The notes under the pieces were generated by a model. The model did no database searches. It saw nothing but the letters and a program-made list of their open reading frames with translations, and had not been told where the DNA came from. Positions 21,685 to 64,000 of a DNA stretch of 64,000 nt are shown here, piece by piece; within the stretch, counting starts at the first letter, position 1; each line of letters starts with the position of its first letter. The position numbers were made by a program, and so were the translations under genes. Origin of the DNA: Pseudomonadota bacterium (GTDB lineage Bacteria > Myxococcota_A > Bradymonadia > UBA4248); NCBI GenBank assembly GCA_017441205.1, contig JAFRYG010000150.1, positions 3,931 through 67,930 of the forward strand. Reading direction: 5' to 3'.

Positions 21685-21995
21685 GGCTTCCTCTAGGCAA
21701 CAATAATTATACCGGTGCGCGTGCACCTAAAAATGCGCATTATGTTCTATAACATCCAAAATTTGCATTCAAGCAAAGACCGATTATAAGGTAATTTTCC
21801 TTAAAATTCCCTTATTCTGTGCCATTTGCAGTGCGGTGGCCTATTGCATACGGCCACCAGTGTTTGTCTTTTGCCCTATGGGCAATACGACAAACAGCGC
21901 TTTTTTTCAATACCTTGTCGCAACGCCGCACAATACCTACATATCGCCTATCACATCTACCCCACTGTACCCGGGGTTACGCTGCGCTGTTCCTC

Positions 21996-32855: not shown

Positions 32856-35800
32856 TTAGTTTTGCCGCAAAACAGCCTGCTTCTTTCGGCGCAGTACTGC
32901 GCCAGCGCCAATCACGGCCAGCCATAAAACCGGGAGTTTTGAATGTTTCGATTTTAACGGCACTGCAGTGCAGTCGGGATGTTCATCAACATGGACAACT
33001 GTTGCATAACAATTGCTGTAATCAATTTCACAGTCTTTTGTACAGCTGACATCTCCATTGCTGTATTTGTACCCCCATTGCTCACATTTGATTTTGTCAT
33101 CCGCAAAGAAATTGCCATCACATGGTTCACCGTTATTGACAATATCATCGCCGCAATAGGGTGTTAATACACATTGACTGAAGTCAATTTTACAATCTTC
33201 AGTACATTTAACCAGTCCAGAATTATATTTGCTGTCCCATTGTCTGCAGTGGTTCCTGTTTCCTTCAAAAGCAGAACCATCGCATTGTTCATCACCATTA
33301 ACAATATTATCGCCGCAATAGGGCGTCGCTATACATTGGCTGAAGTCGATTTTACAATCCTTTGTACAACCGACAGTTCCCTCGGTATACTTATTATCCC
33401 ATTGCGCACATTGAGTCTTATTCTCAACAAAGGCTGCGCCATCGCATAGTTCATAGTTGTTTATGACATTATCGCCGCAGTAGGGTCTGAGTGTACATTG
33501 ACTGTAATCGATCCTGCAATCATTTGTGCAGGAGACGTTTCCTGCACTGTATTTACTGTCCCATTGTATACATTGGGTTCTGTCCCCTTTAAAACTGGAA
33601 CCGTCACATGACTCATTGTTATTCACAATATTATCGCCGCAATGAGGGGCAAGAATACATTCACTGTAATCGATCTCACAGTCGTTTGTACAGGAGACGT
33701 TTCCTGCACTGTATTTGGTGTCCCAATGTATACATTTGGTTTTATTCCCTTTAAAGTTGGAACCATCGCATAATTCATCGTTATTCACAATGCTGTCGCC
33801 GCAATAAGGAGCGAGTGTACATTTGCTGTAATCAATTTCACAACTGCTTGTACAGGAGACGTTTCCTGCGCTGTATTTGCTGTCCCATTGTGCACATTGC
33901 GTTTTATCATCTATAATCTGCAAACCATCGCATAATTCACTGTTATTCACAATATTATCGCCGCAATAAGGAGCGAGTGTACATTTGCTGTAATCAATCT
34001 CACAACTGCTTGTACAGGAGACGTTTCCTGCACTGTATTTGCTGTCCCATTGTACACATTGCGTTTTATTGCCTTTAAAAACAGAACCATCGCACAATTC
34101 GCCATCACCGAGAATATGATCGCCGCAGTTTGCAGTCACGATACATTGACTGTAATCGATCTCACAGGATTTTGTACAAGCAACATTCCCTGCGCTGTAC
34201 ATGCTGTCCCAATCCGCACATTTGGTCTTGTTATTTGAGAAAATAGAACCATCACAATTCTCAAGGTTGTCCAGCTTCCCATTGCCGCAGCAGCTGCAGG
34301 CTGGATCATCGCAGTCAATTTTATCATTGCCATCATCGTCGTATCCGTTGCCGCAGATTTCTTTGTATTGGCCAGCGACTTCAGGGGCAATCGAAATAAT
34401 CCAGTCGTAATAATCCTGTACGGCAGTACTGACATTAAAGGTCCTGCACGGAGGATCCCCATAACTCGTAACACCAACGACATAGCGCTTGCCGCCGACA
34501 GTATAAAACGTCGGTCCGCCGGAATCGCCGCTGCAGTGTCCGCCATCGTTATATGGCGCGTACATCGTGTGGTAAGGTATCGACACAGGGACGGTCGCAT
34601 CGTAATAACCATACTCTTCGCAGTATTCCTTATTGGGGTGGCAGCCTTCGATGTGCACAAAACCGACATCGCAGGTCTCTCCCGCTTCTGGGTTATAGGT
34701 ACCGCAGTAATGTGTCGTTGGTATGGATATACTCATTTTCTTGCCGGAAACGCCATTTTCGTCAACGCCAAACCCACTCGTAACCATCATTTCCGGCAGG
34801 CCATCAGGGGCAAATGCAAGCCATTTGGGAAGGGGAGGCACAGGTGCGGCGACATCACTTCCGATAGGTTTATTCAGCTTGATGAGCGCAATATCATTCA
34901 AGGCAAAATCATCTGTGCTTTGGTATTCAGGGTGATAAAAGAAATACTCCGCTCCGGCAGTATCGTAGGGAATCAGCGCGTTTTCGTTATATCCGATGCC
35001 GACTTTTGCAATTTCATTGTCCTCGGATTCTGTAATGAATTCAGATTCAGTGTCGGTCACACAATGCGCTGCGGTGAGCACCCACTGTGGATGAATGAGT
35101 GTTCCGGTGCAGTAGGTATCGCCGGGGACGGTGCCTTCTGCCGGGGGAAGGTCAGGTCCAAAACCGTCGCAGTCTGTTCCGGCGTCATTGCACTTGCTCT
35201 TACAGTCGTAGCCGCTTTCATCAAGCGGGGCCCACATTTGGGTACCATTGACATTTTTACATTGAAAAACATGGGTATGACCTTCCGAACACTGCTTTGT
35301 CGTTTGACCTGATGCTGAGCACGTTGGCAGACAGTATATGAGCCGGGGTGACATCAGACATCGAAGTGGACTGCATTGCTCCGCATCTTCATCCCTGCAT
35401 TCCAGATAATCTGTCGTTCCGCCGCTGTCGCAGTCTGTTTGGGAGATGTTGCATCCGCCTGCACATAACTGGTTAGCACTGCTCGTATCCTCAATAAAAA
35501 CATTCCCACCCTCAATGGCTTTACAGATGCCGTGGCTTGTCATGACGTAGCCGTTGTTATTTCTGCAAAAGCTCGTGCTCGCCGGCTTGCTGCATTTTTC
35601 CAGGCAGTAATTTTTTTTGTCATTCGTAGCACACGTATAGTTATCCCCATAAAGAAAGGCGCAGAGGAAAACAAAATCTGAATCGCATGTCTTATAAACC
35701 GTGTCACGCACATCCGGAACAAAGAGTGATACGACCTCTGGTTTATCCGTATCCAGTGTACCGTACAAAATCGGCTGTGCATTTGTCCCAAACGATGGGG

Positions 35801-35870
35801 GAACATTTTGCTCATCGCATGCAGTCAGCAATATGCCCAAAATAATCAAATAAAGATGTCGACTTTTCAT
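32856..35870 (-). CDS. Secreted trypsin-like (S1) serine protease with 9 tandem about 50-aa cysteine repeats and a C-terminal hydrophobic helix + basic tail.
   Basis: Signal peptide MKSRHLYLIILGILLTAC. Catalytic triad blocks TAAHC, DIAL, GDSGGP. The repeats 'CGDNIVNN.E.CDGS.FKGNKT.C.QWDSKYSAGNVSCT..CEIDYS.C' are encoded by near-identical DNA units at about 33020..34340. The tail reads LPVLWLAVIGAGAVLRRKKQ. Confidence 0.85.
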   Translation of the reverse strand: MKSRHLYLIILGILLTACDEQNVPPSFGTNAQPILYGTLDTDKPEVVSLFVPDVRDTVYKTCDSDFVFLCAFLYGDNYTCATNDKKNYCLEKCSKPASTSFCRNNNGYVMTSHGICKAIEGGNVFIEDTSSANQLCAGGCNISQTDCDSGGTTDYLECRDEDAEQCSPLRCLMSPRLIYCLPTCSASGQTTKQCSEGHTHVFQCKNVNGTQMWAPLDESGYDCKSKCNDAGTDCDGFGPDLPPAEGTVPGDTYCTGTLIHPQWVLTAAHCVTDTESEFITESEDNEIAKVGIGYNENALIPYDTAGAEYFFYHPEYQSTDDFALNDIALIKLNKPIGSDVAAPVPPLPKWLAFAPDGLPEMMVTSGFGVDENGVSGKKMSISIPTTHYCGTYNPEAGETCDVGFVHIEGCHPNKEYCEEYGYYDATVPVSIPYHTMYAPYNDGGHCSGDSGGPTFYTVGGKRYVVGVTSYGDPPCRTFNVSTAVQDYYDWIISIAPEVAGQYKEICGNGYDDDGNDKIDCDDPACSCCGNGKLDNLENCDGSIFSNNKTKCADWDSMYSAGNVACTKSCEIDYSQCIVTANCGDHILGDGELCDGSVFKGNKTQCVQWDSKYSAGNVSCTSSCEIDYSKCTLAPYCGDNIVNNSELCDGLQIIDDKTQCAQWDSKYSAGNVSCTSSCEIDYSKCTLAPYCGDSIVNNDELCDGSNFKGNKTKCIHWDTKYSAGNVSCTNDCEIDYSECILAPHCGDNIVNNNESCDGSSFKGDRTQCIQWDSKYSAGNVSCTNDCRIDYSQCTLRPYCGDNVINNYELCDGAAFVENKTQCAQWDNKYTEGTVGCTKDCKIDFSQCIATPYCGDNIVNGDEQCDGSAFEGNRNHCRQWDSKYNSGLVKCTEDCKIDFSQCVLTPYCGDDIVNNGEPCDGNFFADDKIKCEQWGYKYSNGDVSCTKDCEIDYSNCYATVVHVDEHPDCTAVPLKSKHSKLPVLWLAVIGAGAVLRRKKQAVLRQN

Positions 35871-42336: not shown

Positions 42337-42404
42337 GATTTCTCCTTACTATTGTTCCACCGGAAGTGGGAGTCGTTTACTGGTTTGCAATATCTTACCA
42401 ATCC

Positions 42405-42460
42405 ATGCGGCGTATGAAATAGCCGCATGGCGAAGGCGTATTTGGCGCAGCCAAAAAGCC
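42405..42460. repeat. REP-like element pair (atgcggcGTATGAAATAGCcgcat, then ggcGTATTTGGCgcaGCCAAAAAGCc).
   Basis: Same core. The first hairpin is identical to the second hairpin at 36025..36046. Confidence 0.55.
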
Positions 42461-42658
42461 GAAGCCCCCAAATTAAAAGGCTCTGCTTAACGTATTTGAA
42501 TTTTCTGCTGATAAATGAAATTTTGGCTTGGAGTTCGAAGCGCTTGTTCTTGCCATCGATAGTGGGAGCAGTAGCCCCCACGCTGAAAATAGCGAGGGGG
42601 CCCATGAAGCGGACGAGGAAGAGGCTGAAAAGAGCCTCAATGGCTGTCCAAACGAATA

Positions 42659-45814: not shown

Positions 45815-45977
45815 TGTTTTAAACCTCCATACGTGATGTTTTGATGCATGCAAATCGCATTGTACTTTATGTTGAGAGTTTCTGAGTCAAAAGGTATGTT
45901 CCGTGTTTCTGTATGATGCAATCATGCCCCTCTGTATTGTACTTCGCCAATGCAGAGGTTCATATATCACTGTTCAT

Positions 45978-51585: not shown

Positions 51586-52009
51586 AAAAACCTCCTGCTT
51601 TCATGAGTACGGGAATTGGAAAACACCGAAACCGTCTTTTGCAAGGCATTTCGATTCATAGCACCCGTATAGCACACTTGATGCAATGAGCGAAATGATA
51701 CTTTTTTTGACCTCACCTCCGCCCGCTTTGCGGCCCCCCTCTCCATGAATGGCGAGGGGATAATGGTATCATTATCTATGACCACAACAATAATACTAAT
51801 AAAAATTAATATATATTATTCCCAAAGTATTCTCAGGAAACAGATTCGCAAATGCATTATGGTCCTCAGTCCTTGTGAATGATTTATCCTTGCATCAGGT
51901 AAGGATTTCCCTGTAGACTTAAGGGCAACGCCAACTTTTAGGCTGTGTGTTGTCACTATACTATGACTATTCAGTGAATCGAGACAGGATCCGAATCAGA
52001 GGAGCTTTT

Positions 52010-55000
52010 ATGAAATCACAAAGACTGTTGTATTCGATGTGTATTTTTGCGGCCATGGGCTTGTATTCATGCAGTGATGATTCAGGCAGCACATCTTCGG
52101 AGGAGAAAGCCATCTGCGGCAATGGAATTCTGGAAGAAGATGAACTATGCGATGACGGCAATACGGAGGCTGGTGACGGTTGTTCGGACGACTGCACGGT
52201 TGAAGCCGGGTGGACCTGCGACAAGCCGGGAATTCCCTGCACAGAAGATGGGCCGGATAAAAAAGCAGTCTGCGGGGATGGCAAAATAACGGGTGATGAA
52301 TCCTGTGATGACGGGAACACCAAAGCTGGCGATGGTTGTTCGGGAGACTGTGCTGTAGAGGATGGCTGGCGCTGCCCAACGCCAGGTGAGCCATGCATCG
52401 AACGTATCGAGGAAGAGGATGCCGTTTGCGGCGACGGATTACTGGATGGCAGCGAGATCTGCGACGATGGTAATATCGAGTCCGGTGACGGCTGTTCGAG
52501 TGAATGCCGCATCGAAGATGGCTGGAACTGTGAAACGCCCGGTGCTGCCTGTGAAAAAACCAATATCGCCGAAGCTGTCTGCGGGGACGGCATTGTTGCT
52601 GATTATGAAGAATGCGACGACGGCAATGCCGAGGCAGATGACGGCTGTTCCTCAAATTGTGCATTAGAGACTGGCTGGCAATGTGAAACACCGGGACAAC
52701 CCTGTGTAAAAGATGTGGTGATCGACGCCGTCTGCGGCGACGGTCAAAAGGCTGACAACGAATCCTGCGACGATGGCAATCTGGATGCCGAGGATGGCTG
52801 TGCGCCCGATTGCACCATTGAGGAAGGATGGACCTGCGATAAACCCGGTGAACCTTGCGTACAAGTTTCTACCGTTCCGGAAGATGTCTGTGGGGATGGT
52901 GAGATCACTGGCGATGAAAAATGCGATGACGGCAATGCAAAGGCAGGCGATGGATGTTCAGACAACTGCACTATCGAAGCTGGCTGGGTTTGCGAAAATC
53001 CCGGCACGCCATGCACAAAGCAGCCCGTAGTTCCCGGAGATGTTTGTGGAGACGGCAAAATTTCCGGCAATGAGAAATGCGATGATGGCAACGCCAAAGA
53101 CGGCGATGGATGTTCTGCCAAGTGCGCCATCGAAAAGGGTTGGACCTGTGCCGAGGCCGGCAAGGCATGTTCGACAGTCTGTGGGGACGGTATCGTTGCA
53201 GGCAAGGAAAAATGTGACGACGGCAATACCAAGGCCGATGACGGTTGTTCTGCCAAGTGTGCCATTGAGGAATCCTACGTATGCAAGACTGCCGGCAAGC
53301 CCTGTACACCCGAATTTGATAACAAAACGAGCATTAAAATTCTTGGCGTGGGCAACAGCCTGATGCGGGACTCGACCGTTTATCTGTGCGATATTCTCGT
53401 CAATATGGGATATAAAAATGTCACGGTTGGCGTGTTATATACCGGCGGCAAGTCGATCAACTATCATGCAGAGAATATGCGCAAGAAAGGGTCGCCCGGG
53501 ACTTACTTTCTCAGTACATGCAAAGATTGTGATACCAAAAGCAAATGTACCGAAACGACCCCCAAAAAGACATATCTGGAAGCCATTAAGTCCGCAAAGT
53601 GGGACTATTTCATCATGATGACCTCTCCTTCCGGCGTAATCGATCTTTACAACAAAGATATTGATTATGTCATCGATACGGTCAAAAAGAATTCACCCAA
53701 AGAACCGGAGTTCGGCTGGGCGCTGACATGGGCATACCAAACGGGCGTTTCGCATTACCAAATGGCATTCCATGGATACAATCAAATTAAAATGTACGAA
53801 GCGGCCGTCATGTCGGTCAAAACCAAGATAGAACCAAGAAAAGATATCTCATTTGTCATCCCTGCGGGAACGGCCATCCAAAACCTCAGAAACGGCATTT
53901 TTGCGAATAATATGAATCGGGATGGCTATCACATGTCCTACAACAATGGTCGGTTTGCGGCCAATCTGATGTGGGCCAAACAAATCACCAAACGACCGGT
54001 CGGCAAAGTCACCTACAAACCGAATAAATATTCCTATACCGACAGGCAAATAAAAGCCCTCAAGGAAGCCGTCGTCAACGCCTATAAAACCCCTTATGCG
54101 GTCACGCGTCCCAGCAAAGGCGTCAACGGAACCTACGTCAAGCCAAACAAGGATCTCCAGAAAATCTTTTCCGATGCAGGCCACAATCTCAAGGATTATG
54201 TCGAAATCCCCGTCGGAGTAACGACAAAAGCCCTGTACAATTCGACGAAACAGGATGCCGATGTATGCAATCTCACGTCTGTATTAATCGACGGTACGAA
54301 ATATTGTTATGCCACACTGGTAAGTGCAGAGACGGGAAGCAAGAGTGCCGATCTTAAGAAACATGCAGCTTCGCGCATCTTTACGCGCTATGAGATCCCC
54401 AATGGCTCATTTATCGTCATCAAATCCGGGTATGAATATCGCGCAGATGGCTGGATTTCCTTCGACAAGGCAACCGCAGCAAAGAACCGGCCTGCTGTCG
54501 TGGATAAACAAATCACCGAGGTGACGGACAAATGGTGGGGGAAATATCAATACCGTGCATTTACTCTGTCCAAAAAAGGAGAACCCAAACTCAGCGACGA
54601 AGAGATGGAAAGCCTAGAAAAGGTCATGTCCATCTTTGTTCCGATTCACCATGACAATGCCGACGATGCTCTCGTCAAGGCGGGTTATGATTTGAGCAAG
54701 TACAAGAAGCTCGATCTGAGCCTGACGCACAAGGCTTATTGGAATTCGAACACAGTAAGCGACTTGCCGACAGGATTGACGAGACCGGACGCAAATAACA
54801 AATTTCCCACCAAACTCTTTGGCGGCGATAAAAACAGTACAGCAGTCAAGTTTGCAACCACGCGCATCTTTACCAAATCAGCAATTCCCAATGGCAGTCT
54901 GATTGTCCTCGTCAAGGGTTATCGTTATACCCCCGACGGTTGGAAGGCCCTTGATGTTTCAAACAAAGGTACAGATCTTCGTCCCAAACCCGTCGTTGCC

Positions 55001-55159
55001 AAGGATGCCAACTCTATCACCGTCGTTGATGATAAGTGGTGGGGTCAGTTCAAATATCGGGCGTTCAACATTACCAAGGCCGAACCGGTTGAACTTACGC
55101 CGCTGGAACAGTATCAGATGGGCGAGGTTTTTGCGATCTATACGCCAGTTTCCAAATAA
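52010..55159 (+). CDS. Secreted protein with about 10 DUF4215/Myxococcus cysteine-rich repeats and a C-terminal SGNH-like hydrolase-fold domain (GNSL block) followed by a duplicated about 100-aa module.
   Basis: GAGGAG RBS. Signal peptide MKSQRLLYSMCIFAAMGLYSC. The repeats are CGDG.I.G.E.CDDGN..AGDGCS..C..E.GW.C. The C-terminal region starts ILGVGNSLMRDS (GDSL-like block I with Asn), which resembles DUF4886/SGNH-fold proteins. The duplicated tail is 'RIFT..IPNGS.IV...GY.Y..DGW...KWWG..YRAF'. Confidence 0.75.
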   Translation: MKSQRLLYSMCIFAAMGLYSCSDDSGSTSSEEKAICGNGILEEDELCDDGNTEAGDGCSDDCTVEAGWTCDKPGIPCTEDGPDKKAVCGDGKITGDESCDDGNTKAGDGCSGDCAVEDGWRCPTPGEPCIERIEEEDAVCGDGLLDGSEICDDGNIESGDGCSSECRIEDGWNCETPGAACEKTNIAEAVCGDGIVADYEECDDGNAEADDGCSSNCALETGWQCETPGQPCVKDVVIDAVCGDGQKADNESCDDGNLDAEDGCAPDCTIEEGWTCDKPGEPCVQVSTVPEDVCGDGEITGDEKCDDGNAKAGDGCSDNCTIEAGWVCENPGTPCTKQPVVPGDVCGDGKISGNEKCDDGNAKDGDGCSAKCAIEKGWTCAEAGKACSTVCGDGIVAGKEKCDDGNTKADDGCSAKCAIEESYVCKTAGKPCTPEFDNKTSIKILGVGNSLMRDSTVYLCDILVNMGYKNVTVGVLYTGGKSINYHAENMRKKGSPGTYFLSTCKDCDTKSKCTETTPKKTYLEAIKSAKWDYFIMMTSPSGVIDLYNKDIDYVIDTVKKNSPKEPEFGWALTWAYQTGVSHYQMAFHGYNQIKMYEAAVMSVKTKIEPRKDISFVIPAGTAIQNLRNGIFANNMNRDGYHMSYNNGRFAANLMWAKQITKRPVGKVTYKPNKYSYTDRQIKALKEAVVNAYKTPYAVTRPSKGVNGTYVKPNKDLQKIFSDAGHNLKDYVEIPVGVTTKALYNSTKQDADVCNLTSVLIDGTKYCYATLVSAETGSKSADLKKHAASRIFTRYEIPNGSFIVIKSGYEYRADGWISFDKATAAKNRPAVVDKQITEVTDKWWGKYQYRAFTLSKKGEPKLSDEEMESLEKVMSIFVPIHHDNADDALVKAGYDLSKYKKLDLSLTHKAYWNSNTVSDLPTGLTRPDANNKFPTKLFGGDKNSTAVKFATTRIFTKSAIPNGSLIVLVKGYRYTPDGWKALDVSNKGTDLRPKPVVAKDANSITVVDDKWWGQFKYRAFNITKAEPVELTPLEQYQMGEVFAIYTPVSK

Positions 55160-55391: not shown

Positions 55392-57764
55392 ATGAAGAGG
55401 TATTTCAGATTCATCCTATGGACGGCAGCTGCATCGGCTGCGGGAATTGCAGGAGTTTCGGCTACAGCTGCAGCACAGGATTTGGCCTGGCCGGCAGGAC
55501 AGAATTGTACCCATATTTCGACATACTATGGCTATCGTGCATCACATTTTCACAGCGGCATTGATATTGCGTGCGGCGGCGACATCGATATTCTCGCGGC
55601 AGCAGACGGCAAAGTCGTTTCCGAAACGAATTCCCAGGGGCAGTGCCAATATTCCAAATCCGCCGGCACATGCGTTTCGTGCAAGCAATCCATGGGCAAC
55701 TCCCTGACCATCGATCACGGCAATGGCTATCAGACCATCTACATGCATCTCAAGAAGAAGCTGGTAAAAAAAGGCGATGAGGTTTCCTGCGGCGATGTCA
55801 TCGCGAAGATGGGAACGACGGGATGCTCGACCGGCCAGCACCTGCATTTTACGGTCAAGATCAACGGCAAAACGGACGATCCCTTCAATCACGTCAAAAA
55901 AGCCAACTACACGTGTCCCGCAGGCAGCGGCGGTTCCCTCGGTATGGTGTCGATTTTTGAGCCGCAAAATACCGATATCGACGGCGACGGCGTCGCCGAA
56001 ATCTGCATCCGCGGCTCAAAGGGCCTGCAATGCATCTTCCCCAAAACGGACATTACGACCAAAAACATTATCTTCGACACCTTCAGTGACGAAAAGGGCT
56101 GGAACGACGTTTCGAACTACGCCACGATTCGTTTTGCCGATGTCAATGGCGACGACAAATCGGATGTCTGTGCCCGTTCGAATTCCGCCTATCAGTGCTG
56201 GCTGTCGAACGGCACGGGCTTTACCGACGGCGGCAGCGTCAGCATGAGCGACAAAGATGGCTACAACGACGTCAAATACTATGCGACGACAAAACTCGCC
56301 GATATCAATGCCGACGGCAAATTCGATTTCTGCGCGCGGTTCAAGGATCACTTCAATTGTTACCTGTCGACCGGCGACGGATTTTCGGAAACCCCGATTC
56401 ACTTCGACGACATGGGCGACGCACAGGGCTGGGGCAAGCCGCAGTATTACATGACGATCCGCATGGCCGACATCAATGGCGACGGCATGGCGGATGTTTG
56501 CGGGCGCAGCAGCAGCGGCGTGCTCTGCTGGCCTTCGCATGGCGACAGCTTCGGCGATGCCATTACGGGCCCCGCCTGGACGGACGCCAACTGGGAAAAA
56601 GCCCCGTATTATTCGACGATCCGCATGCCCGATATCAATGGCGACCACAAAGCCGATCTCTGTGCACGCGACAACAGCGGCGTCGTGTGCCATCTTTCGA
56701 CCGACGATGGCTTTGGCGACGAGATTCGCGGCCCCGAATGGTCTGACAGCAATGGCTGGAAGGATCCGGAGCATTACGCAACGCTCCAGTTCGGCGATAT
56801 CAACGGCGACGGCATGGACGATATCTGCGCCCGCGCCGATGCCGGCCTTATCTGCCACCTGTCCAATGGCAATGGATTTGAAGCGGACAGCTTTACCATC
56901 GATGAATTCGGCGACGCCAAAGGCGGCAACAAACCTGCCATCTACCGAACCATCCACATCGGCGACATCGATGGTGACGGCAAAATGGACATCTGCGGGC
57001 GCAATACAGAAACCGCAGTCTGCTTCAAGTTCAACGGTGAAGGCTTCGACCGCATCGAAGGTGCGCCGCTTTCGGATTCCAGCGGCTGGAATGGCAACGA
57101 ATATGCTTCGACCTATCGCCTTGGCGGTCCCAAGCCCAAAGATTGCTCGTTCCTGGCCGAAATCTGTGACGAAAAGGACAACAACTGCAACGGCGAAGTC
57201 GACGAAGGCAACGTATGCTGCGAACCGTCCGAAGAAATCTGCGACGGTGCCGACAACGACTGCGACGGCCAAATCGACGAAGATGGCGTCTGCTGCGTGC
57301 CTGAGGTCTGTGACGGCTTGGACAATGACTGCGACGGTGAAGTCGACGAAGACAACATCTGCTGCGAACCGACCGAAGAAATCTGTGATCGCATCGACAA
57401 TGACTGCGACGGCCAAATCGATGAAGACAACGTTTGCTGCGAACCTTCGGAAGAAGTCTGCGACGGCGAAGACAACGACTGCGACGGCCAAATCGACGAA
57501 GACGATGTCTGCAATACCGAACCCGACGAAAAACAGGATGATAGCGACGAAAAAGGCGACAATAACGACGATTACAAAAATAACGGTAACGACACAGATG
57601 AAGAGCCCGATTCGGTTGAACCCAACGAGCGTTCCATCCATGTGTCGGACGATTGCTCGAGCCAGCCGCAGGGAACGTCTTCGCATCCGATGCCCTGGCT
57701 GCTTGGATTTGGCGGTCTTTTGGGCATGATTCTGTATCGCCGTCGTCGCGAGAATTCGAAATGA
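55392..57764 (+). CDS. Secreted M23 (LytM-type) metallopeptidase, followed by about 9 FG-GAP/VCBS-like repeats, 5 MopE-like 'CDG.DNDCDG.IDED' repeats, an acidic linker and a C-terminal sorting-signal-like tail.
   Basis: GGAGG RBS. Signal peptide MKRYFRFILWTAAASAAGIAGVSATAAAQD. M23 motifs HSGIDIA...DG.V...GNSLTIDHGNGYQTIYMHL...GTTGCSTGQHLHF. Repeats Y.TIRFADVNGDGK.DVCAR. Tail CSSQPQGTSSHPMPWLLGFGGLLGMILYRRRRENSK. Confidence 0.85.
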   Translation: MKRYFRFILWTAAASAAGIAGVSATAAAQDLAWPAGQNCTHISTYYGYRASHFHSGIDIACGGDIDILAAADGKVVSETNSQGQCQYSKSAGTCVSCKQSMGNSLTIDHGNGYQTIYMHLKKKLVKKGDEVSCGDVIAKMGTTGCSTGQHLHFTVKINGKTDDPFNHVKKANYTCPAGSGGSLGMVSIFEPQNTDIDGDGVAEICIRGSKGLQCIFPKTDITTKNIIFDTFSDEKGWNDVSNYATIRFADVNGDDKSDVCARSNSAYQCWLSNGTGFTDGGSVSMSDKDGYNDVKYYATTKLADINADGKFDFCARFKDHFNCYLSTGDGFSETPIHFDDMGDAQGWGKPQYYMTIRMADINGDGMADVCGRSSSGVLCWPSHGDSFGDAITGPAWTDANWEKAPYYSTIRMPDINGDHKADLCARDNSGVVCHLSTDDGFGDEIRGPEWSDSNGWKDPEHYATLQFGDINGDGMDDICARADAGLICHLSNGNGFEADSFTIDEFGDAKGGNKPAIYRTIHIGDIDGDGKMDICGRNTETAVCFKFNGEGFDRIEGAPLSDSSGWNGNEYASTYRLGGPKPKDCSFLAEICDEKDNNCNGEVDEGNVCCEPSEEICDGADNDCDGQIDEDGVCCVPEVCDGLDNDCDGEVDEDNICCEPTEEICDRIDNDCDGQIDEDNVCCEPSEEVCDGEDNDCDGQIDEDDVCNTEPDEKQDDSDEKGDNNDDYKNNGNDTDEEPDSVEPNERSIHVSDDCSSQPQGTSSHPMPWLLGFGGLLGMILYRRRRENSK

Positions 57765-57998: not shown

Positions 57999-60368
57999 AT
58001 GCGCAAACATACCAGAATGATTCTTTTGTACGTATTTGCCATGTATGCAGGGATGATGGCTGCGAATGATGGCGCGCAGGCCCAGGATATGGCATGGCCC
58101 GTAGCAACCTGCACAAGCATTTCAGATGACTATGGCCCGAGGGATGGAACTACGCACTCGGGCATTGATATCTCGTGCGCTGGCAACCATGACGTCCTTG
58201 CCGCAGCCGATGGTGAAGTCATCGCTGAAACGACTGATAACACCCAATGCACTTATTCAAATGGACATTGTTATGGTTGCGTTAATGAGAGGGGCAACTC
58301 GCTGACAATCAAACACGACAATGGCTGGCACACGGTCTCCATGCATCTGGAGAAGAAATATGTTTCCACAGGGGACAGGGTAAAATGCGGACAACCGATC
58401 GGAAAAATGGGCACGACCGGCTGTTCGACGGGGCAGCATCTGCATTTTACGACCTACGAAACGAGCTACAGCAAGCATGATTCCCCCTGGAATCACGTGG
58501 AAAAGGGAAACATGACATGCCCGTCCAGCGGCTGGATTGCAGGCCTCGACCTGGTGACGACATACGACCCGCAGAACACGGACATCGACGGTGACGGCGT
58601 CGCCGAAATCTGTATCCGGGGCAATGCCGGCATATACTGTACGTTCCCCAAAACCGACATCACCGCCAAATCGGTAATCTTCGACAAGCTGACCGACAAG
58701 GACGGATGGGATGACAGCTCCAATTACGCGACGATTCGTTTTGCCGACGTCAACGGCGACGGCAAGGCCGATGTCTGTGCGCGCAGTGACACCAAACTGA
58801 GCTGCTGGATTTCGAACGGAAGCGGTTTCGAAACGGAATGGGGGAGCGTACCCATGGCCGATGCGGATGGTTATAAGGCCCCGCAATACTATGCCACCAT
58901 TAAATTTGCCGATATCAACGGCGATGCGAAAGACGATTTCTGTGCTCGCTTTAAAGATGGCTTTAAATGCTATCTTTCGTCCGAAAATGGTTTTTCCGAA
59001 ACCAGCGTCGATCTCAAGGCAATGTCGGATGCCGATGGCTGGGATAATGCGTCGAGGTATGCGACGATCCGCATGGCGGATATCAACGGCGATGGCATGG
59101 CAGACGCCTGCGGACTCAGCAAATCGGGCTGGCAGTGCTGGCCGTCGAAAGGCGATTCCTTCGGCGAACCCATTCAAGGTCCTGCATGGAGCGATGATAC
59201 ATGGAGCGAGGCCATGTATTTTGCGACGATCCGCATGCCGGATATCAATGGCGACCACAAAGCAGACGTATGTGCGCGCGATGCCAAAGGAATTGTCTGC
59301 CACCTTTCGACCGGCGAGGGCTGGGGAGAGGCCATTCGCGGCCCGGAACTCTCTGATGAAAAAGGCTGGGGAAAACCGGAATATTACATGACGCTCCAGT
59401 TCGGCGATCTCAACAAAGACGGCAAGGATGACCTCTGTGCGCGTGGAGCCGACGAGTTTATTTGCTATCTTTCGGATGGCGAAAGCTTTAAACGCGACGA
59501 AAAATACGTCCTCACCGAGTTCAGCAATGCCAAAGGCGGCAACGCCCCCGGCGTGTACCGAACCATTCACCTCGGGGATGTCAATGGCGACGGCATCATG
59601 GATGTCTGCGGCCGCAACCCAAGCAAAGCGGTATGTTTCGTCTATGGCGGCGATACACCAAAACGCCTTGAAGGCCCAAATCTCAATGATTCCTATGGCT
59701 GGGATGAAAATCCATACGGTTCGACGTTCCGTTTTGGCGGTCCCAAGCCAAAAGACTGCAGCTTTGTCGAAGAAATCTGCGACGAAAAGGACAACAACTG
59801 CAACGGCGAAATCGACGAAGGCGGCGTCTGCTGCGTGCCGGAAGTCTGCGACCAGAAGGACAACGACTGCGACGGCGAAGTCGACGAAGACAACGTCTGC
59901 TGCGAACCGTCCGATGAAATCTGTGACGGCAAAGACAATGACTGCGACGGTTCAGTCGACGAAGACAACGTTTGCTGCGTGCCTGAAATCTGCGACCAGA
60001 AGGACAACGACTGCGACGGAGAAATCGACGAAGACAACGTTTGCTGCGAACCGTCCGAAGAAATCTGTGATCAGAAGGACAACGACTGCGACGGTGAAGT
60101 TGACGAAGACGATGTCTGCAAAAAGCCGGAAGAAGAGAAACCCGATAAGCCCGATAAGCCCGATAAGCCTGAAACGCCGGATACTCCGGATAAGCCAGAT
60201 ACACCCGATACGCCGGATGAATCCGCCGACAACACGCCAGCTTCCTCTGCAGAAGGCTGCTCGAGCCAGCCGCAGGGAACGTCTTCGCATCCGATGCCCT
60301 GGCTGCTTGGATTCGGCGGTCTTTTGGGCATGATTCTGTATCGCCGTCGCCGCGAGAGTTCGAAATAA
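57999..60368 (+). CDS. Tandem paralog of the previous gene, with the same M23 peptidase + FG-GAP-like + MopE-like + Pro/Asp/Lys linker + C-terminal sorting-signal-like tail architecture.
   Basis: Start trimmed to MRKHTRMILLYVFAMYAGMMAANDGAQAQD (GGAGG RBS). The same domain order. The last about 110 nt of the CDS and about 40 nt downstream are nearly identical to 57655..57800. Confidence 0.85.
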   Translation: MRKHTRMILLYVFAMYAGMMAANDGAQAQDMAWPVATCTSISDDYGPRDGTTHSGIDISCAGNHDVLAAADGEVIAETTDNTQCTYSNGHCYGCVNERGNSLTIKHDNGWHTVSMHLEKKYVSTGDRVKCGQPIGKMGTTGCSTGQHLHFTTYETSYSKHDSPWNHVEKGNMTCPSSGWIAGLDLVTTYDPQNTDIDGDGVAEICIRGNAGIYCTFPKTDITAKSVIFDKLTDKDGWDDSSNYATIRFADVNGDGKADVCARSDTKLSCWISNGSGFETEWGSVPMADADGYKAPQYYATIKFADINGDAKDDFCARFKDGFKCYLSSENGFSETSVDLKAMSDADGWDNASRYATIRMADINGDGMADACGLSKSGWQCWPSKGDSFGEPIQGPAWSDDTWSEAMYFATIRMPDINGDHKADVCARDAKGIVCHLSTGEGWGEAIRGPELSDEKGWGKPEYYMTLQFGDLNKDGKDDLCARGADEFICYLSDGESFKRDEKYVLTEFSNAKGGNAPGVYRTIHLGDVNGDGIMDVCGRNPSKAVCFVYGGDTPKRLEGPNLNDSYGWDENPYGSTFRFGGPKPKDCSFVEEICDEKDNNCNGEIDEGGVCCVPEVCDQKDNDCDGEVDEDNVCCEPSDEICDGKDNDCDGSVDEDNVCCVPEICDQKDNDCDGEIDEDNVCCEPSEEICDQKDNDCDGEVDEDDVCKKPEEEKPDKPDKPDKPETPDTPDKPDTPDTPDESADNTPASSAEGCSSQPQGTSSHPMPWLLGFGGLLGMILYRRRRESSK

Positions 60369-60663
60369 CGGTTGTTTGGGTGGCCCGTGCTATTCGTAAC
60401 CTTTTTACAATCCGAGTAGCTGTTTTCGGAATTCATCATAATGATTACGCCGCCATGGACGGCGGCGAGAGGCGAGGGAGGCATGTCCATGGATGGACAT
60501 TCGACCCGTAACTGCGATCGCCATAAGAAGCGTGCGGGGGTCGTAGTGGGTGTTCACAATCGAACACCCCCTACCGCGTAAGCGTACAAAAAAAGCATCT
60601 GCGCATCAATGCGCAAATAAACAATTCAGCAATAGGTATAGCCAAATCAATAATAAACAATAA

Positions 60664-60733
60664 AGCCGCGTATTTGCCTTCGGCAAATAGCGGCGAGGCA
60701 AGCCGTAGTGGCCAGCAGCCACAAGGCGCGCCC
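60664..60733. repeat. REP-like element (gccGCGTATTTGCCttcGGCAAATAGCggc) plus a second hairpin (gtggccagcagccac).
   Basis: Copy of 57864..57930. The second hairpin keeps the GTGGC/GCCAC stem with a different loop. Confidence 0.6.
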
Positions 60734-61041
60734 CAAAACAGTCAAACTGCAATCGGGAGACCTCACCGTGCCTCAGTATGGAAAGGGGGACTTGAAAAAC
60801 TGACTGTGCATACACATAAGACCAAAACACGATACGTAGATAGCGAATTAATATATTGATACAAACGATACAAAACAACAATAAATAATTATACATTTTT
60901 CATCATTTTATGCTTGCCCACCCAACATAATTTCCTGATAAGGATGTTGGGTGTATTTTTAAACAAAAGTCAATTTTTTAACACAATACATCCTTATCAA
61001 TCATTCCCTTTTGAGGGCCATCGTTTTTTGTGGGGATTAAT

Positions 61042-64000
61042 ATGACGTTGAAACGCAATCGTAAGTTTTTCTTAATTCTAGCAACATCAATCATAGCGGT
61101 TGGCTGCAGTTCATCGTCCCATCACGACGATGATAACACCCCCGAAGGCCCGTCAAACAGCAGTATTCAGATTACATCCCTGCGCGGGTCACCATCCTGG
61201 GGAGACGCGCCCCTTTTGACGGAAGTGAGATGGGAGATTTCCAATCCGTCTCAGGAACTCCTGACATGTCGCCTGGACATGAATGGAGACGGACAGGCCG
61301 AGTACACCATAGAATCGTGCCCGGTCACCGGCAGTCAGGCACATATGTTCGAGATCCCTGGCGCTCATGTTGTGAATCTGACGGTTGAAGGCGAAGACGG
61401 CAAAGTTGTTTCGTCCGAAACACATGTATATGCCAATCATCTCGAATGGAATGATCGTACGAAGTTTTCGGACGAAATGGCCGGCGTTCATGAAATTGAG
61501 GTTACGAGCAATTCCCTTGTAATTACGGTTGATTCCGAAGGGGAACAGCCCACATTTGAAGAAGGGCAGGTACTCGTGAGTACACAGGGCGGCGGCTATT
61601 TGAGAAAAGTCGTTGGTGTGCATTACGACGGCGATCAGATTATTCTTGAAACGGAACCCGCCACGCTTGAGGATGCCATTTCGACCGGCAATTTTGGTGC
61701 CGAGGATGTCGTTGCGATTTCGGATGTTCAGTGCATGTCGAACTGCGAAACGTTTGTCGCGAAGCGTTCGTTAGATCGCCGCCATTTGCGCGACAATTAT
61801 ACGGATGCGCTCGAATTCGATGTTCATCCGCCTGCCTCCGAGAACATGCAGCTGCACAATGCCTCGCTTCGCATCGGCGACCATCTCGCCTATTCGATGG
61901 CGATGAGCAATTCTGCGATGTCCGACATGACCATGGTGTGGTCGAATTATTTTGAATTTCGTGCGCACATTGCGAGTACGGCTGCCGACAGCATGCAGCT
62001 CACGCTCCCGGTACTGCATATCAATTCAGCGGGTGTGGGCTTGTTCCCGATTGCATTCGATCTGAGCGGTAGTTTAAAAATCGTTTCGAATGGCATTTTC
62101 GAGGGCGATATCAGCATCAACTACGAAGTGGTCACGACGATGGTCTATGCCAACGGGCAATTCACGACGACACAGACGCTGGCCAGTGAACCCGAAATTA
62201 CCCTGAGCAACATTGATACCACAGCAGATATGCCGCTCAAGGTACTGGCGGCACCAACGCAGACGATGTCAATTTATGGCTTGAGCGGCCCACAGATCGA
62301 TCCGTCGGTCAAAACATTAATTTATAATGTTCAGCCAAATACGTCCCAGGTCGAGGCTGCATGTACCCAGGCGACCGCGAATGGAACTTCGTCCAGCAGT
62401 GGAACGCTTGGATTTACTGCGAATGCGTTCAATGTCAGTGGTTCGGGAACGCTCGAGGATGTACGATTTTTCGACAATTGTATTTATCTGCAGTCAGGTC
62501 CCCCTTCCGCCGAAACACCTGCTCCCGGTACGACTCCCGCGCCGGATCCCGCCGTGACGCAGCCGGACTGCACCGCCGGAGAAATCAAGTGCGAAGGTCA
62601 GCAGCTCTACCAATGCGTGAACGGTGTCTGGATCGATTCGATGGTGTGTGCTGAAGATGCCATCTGCGACAGTTTTGAGGGCAAGTGCATCACACCCGAA
62701 TGTGACGAGGGTTCCGTACAGTGTGAAGGCGATGTCCTCAAGCAATGTACTCAGAATGCCTGGCAAATGATCGATTGTGCGGCCGCCGATATGATTTGTG
62801 TTCCCGGCCGTGGGGCATGTGAACCCAAAGTCTGCGAAGACGGCGTCAATACGTGCGAAGGCACGCGCCTCGTATCGTGTCAGGGTAATGTCAAATCCTA
62901 TACGTATTGCGGTGAATTGCCCGCAACCGAAGAGGCAGTTTATGGCTTTTTGTGCAGTGACACTGCACATGCCTGCGCACCCAGACTGTGCCTCGACAAC
63001 AGCACACGGTGCAATAACAACGCCATTGAGATTTGTTTGAACAATGCCTGGACTGTACTTGAAGGCTGCGAAGCCAAAACCCAAAAATGTACCGAAGGCG
63101 AATCGGGTCCTGAATGCCGCAAGCTCGTTTGTCAACCCGGCGAAACGATATGCCAGGACGATGGCAAGGGGCATATTCTGCTCCATTCATGTGATGCCGA
63201 TGGATCGCAGTTCGCAGCCGGCGTACCCTGCCCCGATGCCGATGGCAAAGCCCAGATTTGCAGGGACAACAAATGCGTCGAACAGATATGTGTCGAAGAT
63301 GATGTTCGATGTACCCAGGATAGCCTGAGTGTCGAAGTTTGCCACGATAATGCATGGAAAAAGACGAATTGCAATGTCCTCGAAACGGACGACCGTATTT
63401 GTCTTGAAGAGCCCGATTCGGCGACACCAGCCCCAACTTGCTATGATCGCATCTGCGAACCGGATACAACCAAGTGTACAGGTGTCGATAATCGCCAGGT
63501 TTCAGTTTGTGAACTGGGCATTCGATGGTCTGATCCCACCGATTGTGCCGATGGCATGATCTGCATGGACAAGGACGGTGTCGCCGACTGCAGAACCCCC
63601 GAATGCATCCCCGCGAGCTTTACGCCGTATTGCCAGAGCACGCCCGAAGCCTGGGTGACATGCAATCCCGAAACCTTTACCCGCGTCACCAACCTCTGTG
63701 CGCCCGAAGAACACTGCGAAGCACTCGCCAATGGCTGTGTGCTGTACTGCGGCAATAATATCATCGATACCGCAGACGAGGTTTGCGATGGAACTGCGGC
63801 TTTTGCCGATACCTGTGCAAGCGTTCTTGGACGCGCCAATGCTCTGGGCAAACTCGCCTGCAGTGATACATGTACTTTCGTCACAACAGGATGCTACTGG
63901 TGCGGCGATGGAATGCTGAACGAAGGCGAAGAATGCGACACCACGATTCCCGAAGGTACGGTTTGTCCGGATGGTACGTCTGGAACGCCGATCTGCAGCA
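61042..64000 (+). CDS. Large secreted lipoprotein, partial (runs off the right window edge). It has an N-terminal about 500-aa non-repetitive region followed by EGF-like Cys repeats (C.EG...C.G..L..C..NAW...C...C).
   Basis: ATG at 61042, giving MTLKRNRKFFLILATSIIAVGCSSSS (lipobox). The frame stays open to position 64000, which explains its absence from the ORF track. The Cys repeats share the pattern of 28700..31507. Confidence 0.7.
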   Translation, partial: MTLKRNRKFFLILATSIIAVGCSSSSHHDDDNTPEGPSNSSIQITSLRGSPSWGDAPLLTEVRWEISNPSQELLTCRLDMNGDGQAEYTIESCPVTGSQAHMFEIPGAHVVNLTVEGEDGKVVSSETHVYANHLEWNDRTKFSDEMAGVHEIEVTSNSLVITVDSEGEQPTFEEGQVLVSTQGGGYLRKVVGVHYDGDQIILETEPATLEDAISTGNFGAEDVVAISDVQCMSNCETFVAKRSLDRRHLRDNYTDALEFDVHPPASENMQLHNASLRIGDHLAYSMAMSNSAMSDMTMVWSNYFEFRAHIASTAADSMQLTLPVLHINSAGVGLFPIAFDLSGSLKIVSNGIFEGDISINYEVVTTMVYANGQFTTTQTLASEPEITLSNIDTTADMPLKVLAAPTQTMSIYGLSGPQIDPSVKTLIYNVQPNTSQVEAACTQATANGTSSSSGTLGFTANAFNVSGSGTLEDVRFFDNCIYLQSGPPSAETPAPGTTPAPDPAVTQPDCTAGEIKCEGQQLYQCVNGVWIDSMVCAEDAICDSFEGKCITPECDEGSVQCEGDVLKQCTQNAWQMIDCAAADMICVPGRGACEPKVCEDGVNTCEGTRLVSCQGNVKSYTYCGELPATEEAVYGFLCSDTAHACAPRLCLDNSTRCNNNAIEICLNNAWTVLEGCEAKTQKCTEGESGPECRKLVCQPGETICQDDGKGHILLHSCDADGSQFAAGVPCPDADGKAQICRDNKCVEQICVEDDVRCTQDSLSVEVCHDNAWKKTNCNVLETDDRICLEEPDSATPAPTCYDRICEPDTTKCTGVDNRQVSVCELGIRWSDPTDCADGMICMDKDGVADCRTPECIPASFTPYCQSTPEAWVTCNPETFTRVTNLCAPEEHCEALANGCVLYCGNNIIDTADEVCDGTAAFADTCASVLGRANALGKLACSDTCTFVTTGCYWCGDGMLNEGEECDTTIPEGTVCPDGTSGTPICS

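What the first reader, a model, noticed from the sequence alone, without database searches (positions are those of the whole stretch)
57650..57764. Shared C-terminal sorting-signal-like tail (Cys...hydrophobic helix...RRRR) on three secreted enzymes
The genes 55392..57764 and 57999..60368 both end in ...CSSQPQGTSSHPMPWLLGFGGLLGMILYRRRRE(N/S)SK. The gene 32856..35870 ends in ...LPVLWLAVIGAGAVLRRKKQAVLRQN. Each has an invariant-looking Cys and polar spacer, then a Gly-containing TM helix, then an Arg/Lys cluster at the very C-terminus. That is the tripartite layout of exosortase/rhombosortase/myxosortase substrates (PEP-CTERM, GlyGly-CTERM, MYXO-CTERM), but without a PEP motif. It predicts a dedicated processing protease encoded elsewhere in the genome and covalent or surface anchoring of these enzymes.
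Basis: partly seen in the sequence, partly recalled or inferred. Interest (0 to 1): 0.65.

Follow-up and report, generated by a model that had tools for sequence, protein, structure and literature searches.

The report
MYXO-CTERM surface-sorting tails on secreted hydrolases
Three secreted lytic enzymes of an uncultured low-GC myxobacterium end in the known MYXO-CTERM sorting tag, which a membrane protease called myxosortase removes so the enzyme stays on the cell surface; this is an ordinary member of a described system.

Summary
Genes 55392-57764(+) and 57999-60368(+), both M23 peptidase + FG-GAP + MopE repeats, end in CSSQPQGTSSHPMPWLLGFGGLLGMILYRRRRE(N/S)SK. Gene 32856-35870(-), a trypsin-like lipoprotein, ends in CTAVPLKSKHSKLPVLWLAVIGAGAVLRRKKQAVLRQN.

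The first two tails are MYXO-CTERM (TIGR03901.2). Scored alone they pass its cutoff (22.8 and 25.1 bits against 20); inside the full proteins they fall short (15.6 and 17.7). JGI already names a 95%-identical fragment MYXO-CTERM, and 97 of 120 homologs across Myxococcota carry the same kind of tail.

The two identical tails count as one observation. They are 95% identical in DNA next to a 37%-identical linker, which indicates gene conversion.

The third tail misses the curated model but scores about 21 bits on a lineage-specific HMM (empirical null maximum 12.7). Its Cys and spacer are conserved in the ortholog from Myxococcales bacterium UBA4248.

The mechanism is published: Sec export, probable lipidation of the Cys, cleavage by a CPBP-family myxosortase, then type II secretion to the surface. 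No myxosortase lies in the window. A myxosortase-core gene sits on a metagenomic contig whose composition matches the window, but I could not prove linkage.

This is a known system with a new lineage member, so interest is low.

The parts
55392..57764 (+). Gene 1, 790 aa. Sec signal peptide (…AAAQ/D), Peptidase_M23 (about 55548-55883), six FG-GAP/VCBS repeats, four MopE-type Cys repeats, an acidic disordered linker, then the MYXO-CTERM tail.
   Evidence: ORF. Pfam domains. The HxxxD and HxH motifs of M23 are visible in the sequence. P0002 is a near-identical gene call of the same length.
57654..57695 (+). Gene 1 signature and spacer, CSSQPQGTSSHPMP. It has a single Cys, with Pro at Cys+4.
   Evidence: Coordinates. 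TIGR03901.2 scores 22.8 bits on the isolated tail and 15.6 in the full protein. The lineage HMM scores 52.8 bits.
57696..57737 (+). Gene 1 transmembrane helix, WLLGFGGLLGMILY. It has no charged or Pro residues.
57738..57761 (+). Gene 1 cytoplasmic basic cluster, RRRRENSK. The stop codon is 57762-57764.
57999..60368 (+). Gene 2, 789 aa. A tandem paralog of gene 1 (63% amino-acid identity) with the same architecture, a Pro/Asp/Lys-rich linker, and a tail that is identical except for one residue after the Arg cluster (ESSK versus ENSK).
   Evidence: The same gene pair occurs in relative L001.
60258..60365 (+). Gene 2 MYXO-CTERM tail: signature 60258-60299, helix 60300-60341, RRRRESSK 60342-60365.
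   Evidence: Coordinates. TIGR03901.2 scores 25.1 bits on the tail alone and 17.7 in the full protein. The tail is 95% identical in DNA to gene 1's tail.
32856..35870 (-). Gene 3, 1004 aa. Lipoprotein signal (LLTAC, 35817-35870), trypsin-like serine protease (about 34398-35117; the HC, D and GDSGGP motifs are present), Cys-rich CGDN..CDG repeats, then a C-terminal Cys tail.
   Evidence: ORF. Pfam Trypsin and TIGR02232. N-terminus.
32859..32972 (-). Gene 3 tail, a divergent MYXO-CTERM-like signal: signature and spacer CTAVPLKSKHSKLP (32931-32972), helix VLWLAVIGAGAVL (32892-32930), basic end RRKKQAVLRQN (32859-32891).
   Evidence: No hit to TIGR03901.2. The lineage HMMs score 20-22 bits, against null maxima of 3.1 and 12.7. 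The tail is conserved in the UBA4248 ortholog, EEHPDCAALPQQSNHSKFPVLLLVGIGAGVILRRRKE. Trypsin homologs in L008, L134 and L135 end in SCSASP… tails scoring 27-33 bits.

Best explanation
The tails of genes 1 and 2, and probably of gene 3, are MYXO-CTERM sorting signals of an uncultured low-GC member of Myxococcota.

After Sec export through the N-terminal signal peptide, the C-terminal helix holds the enzyme in the inner membrane with the Arg/Lys cluster in the cytoplasm. The Cys just outside the helix is thought to be lipidated by a separate enzyme not yet identified. A single housekeeping myxosortase, a glutamic-type intramembrane protease of the CPBP/Rce1 family encoded elsewhere in the genome, then cuts off the helix. 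[quoted passage not shown]

The result would be peptidoglycan- and protein-degrading enzymes displayed on the cell surface, consistent with contact-dependent attack on prey or with cell-envelope remodelling.

Shown here: the anatomy, family membership of tails 1 and 2, conservation in orthologs, and the taxonomic placement. Taken from the literature: cleavage by myxosortase, dependence on the Cys, and surface delivery. Inferred: that this genome has a myxosortase, that gene 3's tail is a substrate, and the biological role.
For: - TIGR03901.2 is the top C-terminal sorting model for tails 1 and 2. Scored on the isolated tails it passes its 20-bit cutoff, at 22.8 and 25.1 bits.
- JGI annotates P0001, 95% identical to gene 2, as a MYXO-CTERM domain-containing protein.
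- 97 of 120 homologs end in a Cys…helix…Arg tail. These include named Myxococcota (Sandaracinus, Polyangiaceae, Bradymonadia). Their canonical two-Cys tails pass the curated model: P0075 scores 35 bits alone and 28.5 in the full protein, L008 31.3, P0017 24.2.
- The features listed in Haft 2023 are present: position at the C-terminus, a Cys in the signature, no charged or Pro residues in the helix, and an Arg cluster.
- The gene 3 ortholog, 69% identical over residues 1-998, lies in 'Myxococcales bacterium UBA4248', phylum Myxococcota. Its tail conserves the Cys, the spacer length and the HSK.PVL motif.
- In the same low-GC clade the tail occurs on unrelated head domains: M23, NAGPA and trypsin.
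- The mechanism is experimentally supported in M. xanthus and E. coli (PMC11980579).
- Myxosortase-core proteins passing NF040914 (105-137 bits, cutoff 100) exist on low-GC metagenomic contigs. One of them, L110, matches the window in composition: GC 0.48 and tetranucleotide correlation 0.90, against 0.78-0.94 for confirmed clade contigs and at most 0.71 for the other myxosortase contigs compared (those of at least 5 kb). L110 also shares a protein family with the window.
Against: - In the full-length proteins the curated model falls below its cutoff (15.6 and 17.7 bits against 20). NCBI's own pipeline would therefore not call these proteins MYXO-CTERM.
- Most single-Cys tails of this clade fail the curated model even when scored alone: P0007 11.3, the L008 trypsin protein 9.4, the UBA4248 ortholog 12.7.
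- Gene 3's tail has no hit to the curated model. About 12.5 of its roughly 21 bits come from the helix and the basic cluster alone.
- Gene 3 also has an N-terminal lipobox, so a second anchor is not obviously needed.
- No myxosortase or other CPBP gene lies in the 64 kb window or in the additional clade contigs sampled.
- The link between L110 and this clade rests only on composition and on a 33%-identical protein match.
- The identity of tails 1 and 2 reflects gene conversion, not independent constraint.
Confidence: 0.85

Rival explanations
1. Gene 3's tail is not a myxosortase substrate. It is a plain C-terminal stop-transfer helix on an N-terminally lipidated protease, and its Cys is just one more Cys in a Cys-rich protein.
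For: - No hit to TIGR03901.2, and its ortholog scores only 12.7 bits, from the helix and Arg part alone.
- About 60% of its lineage-HMM score comes from the helix plus RRKK.
- The protein already has a lipobox.
- The basic end is longer and less Arg-rich (RRKKQAVLRQN).
Against: - The Cys lies at the same distance from the helix as in tails 1 and 2, with Pro at Cys+4, and the tail aligns in register with the clade's tails.
- Removing the Cys costs 6-8 bits, and none of 200 spacer shuffles reaches the real score.
- The score lies above every one of about 3,240 control C-termini.
- The Cys and spacer are conserved in the UBA4248 ortholog.
- Trypsin homologs in the clade carry clearer SCSASP tails, at 27-33 bits.
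Confidence: 0.3
2. All three tails are simple, uncleaved C-terminal membrane anchors that hold the enzymes in the inner membrane, with no dedicated sorting machinery.
For: A hydrophobic helix followed by basic residues is a generic membrane-anchor topology. Short sorting-signal models cross-hit on that part alone: on some tails PEP-CTERM and LPXTG reach 14-16 bits.
Against: - The Cys signature is conserved in 97 of 120 family members across a phylum.
- Tails 1 and 2 pass the curated model when scored alone.
- MYXO-CTERM cleavage by MrtX, and its dependence on the Cys, are shown experimentally (PMC11980579).
- Peptidoglycan hydrolases tethered to the periplasmic face of the cell's own inner membrane would be an odd design.
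Confidence: 0.07
3. The tails belong to a different sorting system: PEP-CTERM/exosortase, GlyGly-CTERM/rhombosortase, or JDVT-CTERM/MrtJ.
For: Weak sub-threshold hits. PEP_CTERM scores 14.2-14.3 bits (cutoff 16) and JDVT-CTERM 12.4-14.6 (cutoff 27). Like JDVT-CTERM, the tails have a single Cys.
Against: - There is no PEP motif.
- The window tails give no GlyGly-CTERM hit at E up to 10.
- The near-invariant DP motif of JDVT-CTERM before the helix is absent (sequence).
- All these scores fall below their cutoffs and cover only the helix and Arg part.
- The homolog family grades continuously into canonical MYXO-CTERM.
Confidence: 0.03

Closest known systems
MYXO-CTERM sorting signal (NCBIfam TIGR03901.2) with its myxosortases MrtX, MrtC, MrtP and MrtZ (core model NF040914)
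   Same: - It sits at the extreme C-terminus of signal-peptide-bearing surface enzymes.
- It has a Cys-containing signature, a helix free of charged or Pro residues, and an Arg cluster.
- It occurs on several unrelated proteins per genome.
- The host is in Myxococcota.
- A disordered linker precedes the tag, as described for TraA.
   Different: - It has a single Cys (CSSQP or CTAVP) rather than the common GCGC. In this protein family 68 of 97 tails are CxC type.
- It sits on the edge of the curated model, passing only when the tail is scored alone.
- The host is an uncultured low-GC (about 0.45-0.51) lineage near UBA4248, which is not among the taxa named in the 2023 paper (Myxococcia, Polyangia, Bradymonadales).
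- The cognate myxosortase was not identified for this genome.
JDVT-CTERM / MrtJ (NF033191, NF033192)
   Same: A three-part tail with a single invariant Cys, processed by a related CPBP-family protease.
   Different: - It scores 12.4-14.6 bits against a cutoff of 27.
- It lacks the near-invariant DP motif before the helix.
- The helix is Gly-rich rather than Leu-rich.
GlyGly-CTERM / rhombosortase and PEP-CTERM / exosortase
   Same: The same overall three-part logic. GlyGly-CTERM proteins are also delivered to the surface by type II secretion.
   Different: - The signature motifs differ: there is no PEP and no GlyGly.
- The protease classes differ: a rhomboid serine protease and a Cys transpeptidase, against a glutamic intramembrane protease.
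- The curated models are not met.
Eukaryotic and archaeal CAAX processing by Rce1
   Same: A Cys near the C-terminus is lipidated by a separate enzyme, then a CPBP-family protease removes the residues beyond it.
   Different: The substrate here is an exported protein with a whole transmembrane helix beyond the Cys. The lipid and the lipidating enzyme are unknown.

Membership tests
MYXO-CTERM (TIGR03901.2) | The domain lies at or very near the C-terminus of an exported protein. | tested here: met
   All three tails end 8-11 residues after the helix. The N-termini carry Sec signals (genes 1 and 2) or a lipoprotein signal (gene 3).
MYXO-CTERM (TIGR03901.2) | A Cys is always present in the signature motif. 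| tested here: met
   A Cys is present in all three tails. It is conserved in P0001, P0002, P0005, P0007 and the UBA4248 ortholog, and 97 of 120 family members have a Cys…helix…Arg tail.
MYXO-CTERM (TIGR03901.2) | A second nearby Cys (GCGC) is frequent but not obligatory. | tested here: not met
   The window tails have a single Cys. In the family, 68 of 97 tails are CxC type and 29 are single-Cys. The paper calls this feature frequent, not required.
MYXO-CTERM (TIGR03901.2) | The transmembrane helix has no charged or Pro residues and is followed by an Arg-rich cluster. | tested here: met
   WLLGFGGLLGMILY followed by RRRR; VLWLAVIGAGAVL followed by RRKK.
MYXO-CTERM (TIGR03901.2) | The score reaches the curated cutoff of 20 bits. 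| tested here: inconclusive
   Genes 1 and 2 score 15.6 and 17.7 bits in the full proteins, which fail. The isolated 50-aa tails score 22.8 and 25.1, which pass. Gene 3 gives no hit. The paper states that lineage-specific models are needed.
MYXO-CTERM (TIGR03901.2) | Several unrelated proteins per genome carry the tag (3-73 reported). | tested here: met
   Three proteins of two architectures carry it within 64 kb. In the clade's contigs it occurs on M23, NAGPA and trypsin-type proteins. The whole proteome was not available.
MYXO-CTERM (TIGR03901.2) | The host belongs to Myxococcota, including Bradymonadales. | tested here: met
   The ortholog, 69% identical, lies in Myxococcales bacterium UBA4248, placed in Myxococcota by NCBI taxonomy. 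Named homologs come from Sandaracinus, Polyangiaceae and Bradymonadia.
MYXO-CTERM (TIGR03901.2) | A cognate myxosortase (NF040914 core) is encoded in the same genome. | tested here: inconclusive
   None lies in the window or in the sampled clade contigs. A core-positive gene (105 bits against a cutoff of 100) lies on contig L110, which matches the window in composition (tetranucleotide correlation 0.90). The rest of the genome could not be searched.
MYXO-CTERM (TIGR03901.2) | Cleavage by myxosortase that depends on the Cys, followed by surface display. | not testable with these tools
   Shown for TraA and MXAN_4924 in M. xanthus and for the TraA tag in E. coli (PMC11980579). This needs an experiment.
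JDVT-CTERM (NF033191) | A single Cys, a near-invariant DP before a Leu-rich helix, and a score of at least 27 bits. | tested here: not met
   Scores are 12.4-14.6 bits. There is no DP motif and the helix is Gly-rich (sequence).
PEP-CTERM (TIGR02595) | A PEP motif before the helix and a score of at least 16 bits. | tested here: not met
   There is no PEP motif. Scores of 14.2-14.3 bits cover only the helix and Arg part.
GlyGly-CTERM (TIGR03501) | A GlyGly signature and a score of at least 15.5 bits. | tested here: not met
   The three window tails give no hit at E up to 10.

The most novel reading that the evidence does not exclude
The low-GC clade around UBA4248 may use a distinct single-Cys form of the tag (C[ST][SA]xP…), which the curated MYXO-CTERM model largely misses. 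It may be processed by an unnamed short myxosortase subtype like the 222-aa protein on L110. That protein passes the core model NF040914 but falls below the cutoffs of MrtX, MrtC, MrtP and MrtZ. Some substrates, such as gene 3, would then carry both an N-terminal lipobox and the C-terminal tag.
Probability: 0.25. Interest if true: 0.3.

Novelty: new member of a known kind. Interest (0 to 1): 0.15.

Why it matters
The finding adds little to the understanding of protein sorting, because the signal and its protease are already described and tested experimentally. Its practical value is in annotation. In this uncultured low-GC myxobacterial lineage the curated model misses most single-Cys tails when it is run on full-length proteins, so surface-anchored lytic enzymes are labelled only by their catalytic domain. 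A lineage-specific model would recover them. It would also define the displayed arsenal of cell-wall and protein hydrolases, which is relevant to how these probable predators attack prey.

Tried and rejected
- **MrtX peptide search.** I ran a word-indexed protein search with the two MrtX peptides quoted in the paper, joined by X residues. No candidate was found. The query offers only 18 five-residue words, so the result is uninformative.
- **Tail profile search.** A word-indexed search with a profile of 16 clade tails gave one irrelevant hit and did not even recover known members. I treat this as a tool limitation for short low-complexity queries, not as a negative result.
- **Exhaustive tail-only search.** A phmmer search with the 49-aa tail against 1.84 billion representatives found only the ortholog P0001 and two weak matches to the linker. 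This is expected for a domain of about 35 residues with little information.
- **Looking up gene 2's product.** The exact protein is not on record.
- **CPBP gene in the window or clade contigs.** I tried a motif scan, Pfam and NCBIfam on all large ORFs, and Pfam tables for L001-L010 and L131-L136. None was found.
- **Supplements of both papers.** Neither holds a myxosortase sequence.
- **RNA genes.** There is no Rfam or tRNA hit in the window, so no RNA marker was available for taxonomy.
- **Tails on myxosortase contigs.** None was found. The scan served instead as an empirical null.
- **Pro at Cys+4 as an invariant feature.** Rejected. Its invariance in alignment A1 follows partly from how I chose the sequences. 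Unselected, it occurs in 15 of 29 single-Cys tails.
Full report
**Observation.** The window encodes two tandem plus-strand genes, 55392-57764 and 57999-60368. Their products end in …CSSQPQGTSSHPMPWLLGFGGLLGMILYRRRRENSK and …RRRRESSK. A minus-strand gene, 32856-35870, ends in …HPDCTAVPLKSKHSKLPVLWLAVIGAGAVLRRKKQAVLRQN. A scan of every ORF of at least 150 aa found only these three with a C-terminal hydrophobic stretch followed by a basic cluster. The finder's start coordinate is one base out of frame; the Cys codon of gene 1 is 57654-57656.

**What the proteins are.** Genes 1 and 2 each have a Sec signal peptide, a Peptidase_M23 domain with intact HxxxD and HxH motifs, six FG-GAP/VCBS repeats, four or five MopE-type Cys repeats, and an acidic or Pro-rich disordered linker before the tail. 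Gene 3 has a lipoprotein signal (LLTAC), a trypsin-like domain with the catalytic His, Asp and GDSGGP motifs, and many CGDN…CDG cysteine-rich repeats before its tail. The neighbourhood is chromosomal, with MnmG, ribosomal protein S1 and a sugar kinase. It is also rich in large surface or lytic proteins.

**The two identical tails are one data point.** Codon by codon, the last 38 codons of genes 1 and 2 are 95% identical in DNA, and 33 of 35 same-residue codons are identical. The linker immediately upstream is 37% identical and the genes overall 67%. This is the signature of recent gene conversion between tandem paralogs. Constraint on the tail therefore has to be judged from orthologs.

**Family assignment of tails 1 and 2.**
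- Against NCBIfam, the best C-terminal sorting model is MYXO-CTERM (TIGR03901.2). It scores 15.6 and 17.7 bits within the full proteins, below the 20-bit cutoff. On the isolated 50-residue tails it scores 22.8 and 25.1 bits, above the cutoff.
- JDVT-CTERM (12.4-14.6 bits against 27) and PEP-CTERM (about 14 against 16) fail. GlyGly-CTERM gives no hit.
- A protein search with gene 2 returned 567 homologs. A 95%-identical fragment, P0001, is named 'MYXO-CTERM domain-containing protein' by JGI. Named sources include Sandaracinus, Polyangiaceae, Sandaracinaceae and Bradymonadia.
- Of the 120 listed homologs, 97 end in a Cys…helix…Arg tail.
- Canonical two-Cys tails in the family pass the curated model: Sandaracinus P0075 scores 35 bits alone and 28.5 in the full protein, L008 31.3, P0017 24.2. 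Most single-Cys tails of the close relatives fail it: P0007 11.3, and P0005 full-length gives no hit.
- This matches the published statement that the roughly 34-residue region is highly divergent and that accurate counting needs lineage-specific models (10.1101/2023.06.07.544157).
- An HMM built from 95 homolog tails, excluding the two near-identical relatives, scores tails 1 and 2 at 52.8 and 51.5 bits. The next best of the window's other 254 ORF C-termini scores 3.1. The best of 2,983 C-termini on unrelated contigs scores 12.7.

**The third tail.**
- It has no hit to the curated model, but scores 20-22 bits on the lineage HMMs.
- About 12.5 bits come from the helix and RRKK alone. The Cys adds 6-8 bits. 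None of 200 shuffles of the signature and spacer reaches the real score.
- It aligns in register with the clade's single-Cys tails, with Cys and Pro at Cys+4. The apparent invariance of that Pro partly reflects how I chose the sequences. Unselected, it occurs in 15 of 29 single-Cys tails.
It ends EEHPDCAALPQQSNHSKFPVLLLVGIGAGVILRRRKEIGTP, which conserves the Cys, the spacer length and the HSK.PVL motif.
- More distant trypsin homologs in clade contigs (34% identity in the protease domain, E = 2e-37) end in SCSASP…RRRR tails scoring 27-33 bits.
- I conclude that gene 3 probably carries a divergent member of the same signal, with less confidence than for genes 1 and 2.

**Lineage.** Contigs that encode close homologs have GC 0.45-0.55: L001-L003, L006-L010 and L131-L136. 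NCBI places UBA4248 in Myxococcota. The window has GC 0.49. This is an uncultured low-GC myxobacterial clade that the 2023 paper does not name; that paper lists Myxococcia, Polyangia and Bradymonadales.

**Mechanism, from the literature.** Guo, Haft and Wall (PMC11980579) showed three things. MrtX cleaves the MYXO-CTERM of TraA. Cleavage needs the conserved cysteines. MrtX is sufficient for cleavage in E. coli. Their model has four steps: Sec export, anchoring by the C-terminal helix, lipidation of the Cys by an unidentified enzyme (Lgt is their leading candidate), and cleavage by the CPBP-family myxosortase followed by delivery to the surface by type II secretion. Applied here, the M23 and trypsin-like hydrolases would be displayed on the cell surface.

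**The protease.**
- No CPBP gene lies in the window or in the further clade contigs sampled.
- I back-translated the MrtX active-site peptide PEEFFYRG quoted in the paper and used it for the single metagenome scan. It returned 120 loci. Most carry ORFs with PEEFFYRG[YFW] followed 53-58 residues later by FFP[ASG]L.FG[WFY].
- Nine tested ORFs pass the myxosortase core model NF040914, at 105-137 bits against a cutoff of 100. One is a full MrtP and one a full MrtX. A control scored 35.5.
- One of them lies on L110 (OCTW011497280.1). Its GC is 0.48 and its tetranucleotide correlation with the window is 0.90. That falls within the range of confirmed clade contigs (0.78-0.94) and well above the other myxosortase contigs compared, those of at least 5 kb (0.71 at most).
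- Of the eight myxosortase contigs tested by BLAST, L110 is the only one that shares a protein family with the clade: 33% identity over about 246 residues, E = 1e-22.
- Its 222-aa protein falls below the cutoffs of all four named subtypes.
- This is suggestive, but it does not show that the window's genome encodes a myxosortase.

**Verdict.** The tails are MYXO-CTERM sorting signals, a known system with a known protease class. What is modestly new:
- the host lineage;
- the single-Cys form, which sits at the edge of the curated model;
- a substrate with both a lipobox and the tag;
- a candidate short myxosortase subtype.

Interest is low.

Noticed in passing
window 57100-57764 and 59700-60368: The 3' ends of the tandem paralogs have been homogenised by gene conversion. 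The tail is 95% identical in DNA and the MopE repeat region 77-84%. The acidic linker between them is 37% identical and the genes overall 67%.
   Followed up: yes
homologs P0001-P0120: The scaffold of FG-GAP propeller, MopE Cys repeats and Cys tail carries interchangeable cell-wall-active head domains in different homologs: M23, NAGPA (PF09992), GH25 lysozyme, Amidase_2, VanY and SpoIID. Together they form a modular family of surface-displayed cell-wall hydrolases.
   Followed up: partly
window 35817-35870 (-) and 32859-32972 (-); L003 9923-13825: Gene 3 and its UBA4248 ortholog have both an N-terminal lipoprotein signal (LLTAC, LLSSC) and the C-terminal Cys tail. This implies two potential lipid anchors on one protein.
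   Followed up: partly
window 9679-21726 (-): A giant 4,015-aa ORF made almost entirely of TPR-type repeats.
   Followed up: no
window 39808-48533 (-): Three adjacent paralogous large proteins carry a Peptidase_C39_2 domain. Two of them also have an SH3_3 domain and the third a DUF5722 domain. A region of these proteins is 33% identical to the 999-aa lipoprotein on L110.
   Followed up: partly
window 51947-55159 (+), 6557-7474 (-), 36088-38604 (-): More lineage-typical surface proteins: one with eight DUF4215/myxo_disulf_rpt repeats fused to DUF4886, a smaller protein with myxo_disulf_rpt/DUF4215 cysteine-rich repeats, and a PARCEL/DUF285 repeat protein. None has the Cys tail.
   Followed up: no
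window 61015-64000 (+) and 1-1708 (-): Two long ORFs run off the window ends, of 995 and 569 aa or more. Both have lipoprotein-like N-termini and neither hits any NCBIfam family.
   Followed up: partly
L110 783-1451 (-): A 222-aa protein that passes the myxosortase core model (NF040914, 105 bits) but falls below the cutoffs of MrtX, MrtC, MrtP and MrtZ. It lies next to recO and argS on a contig whose composition matches the window. It may represent an unnamed short subtype. L094 and L106 carry similar FFPGLLFGF variants.
   Followed up: partly
window 56016-57686 (-), 58257-59570 (-), 56476-57729 (+): Long ORFs antisense to, or out of frame with, genes 1 and 2 (up to 556 aa). They are artefacts of the repetitive, compositionally biased coding sequence and not genes.
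   Followed up: no
L001 14569-21611 versus window 60400-64000: Synteny with the near-identical relative breaks just downstream of gene 2. The relative continues with an outer-membrane beta-barrel gene and ATP synthase genes, whereas the window continues with the large lipoprotein.
   Followed up: no
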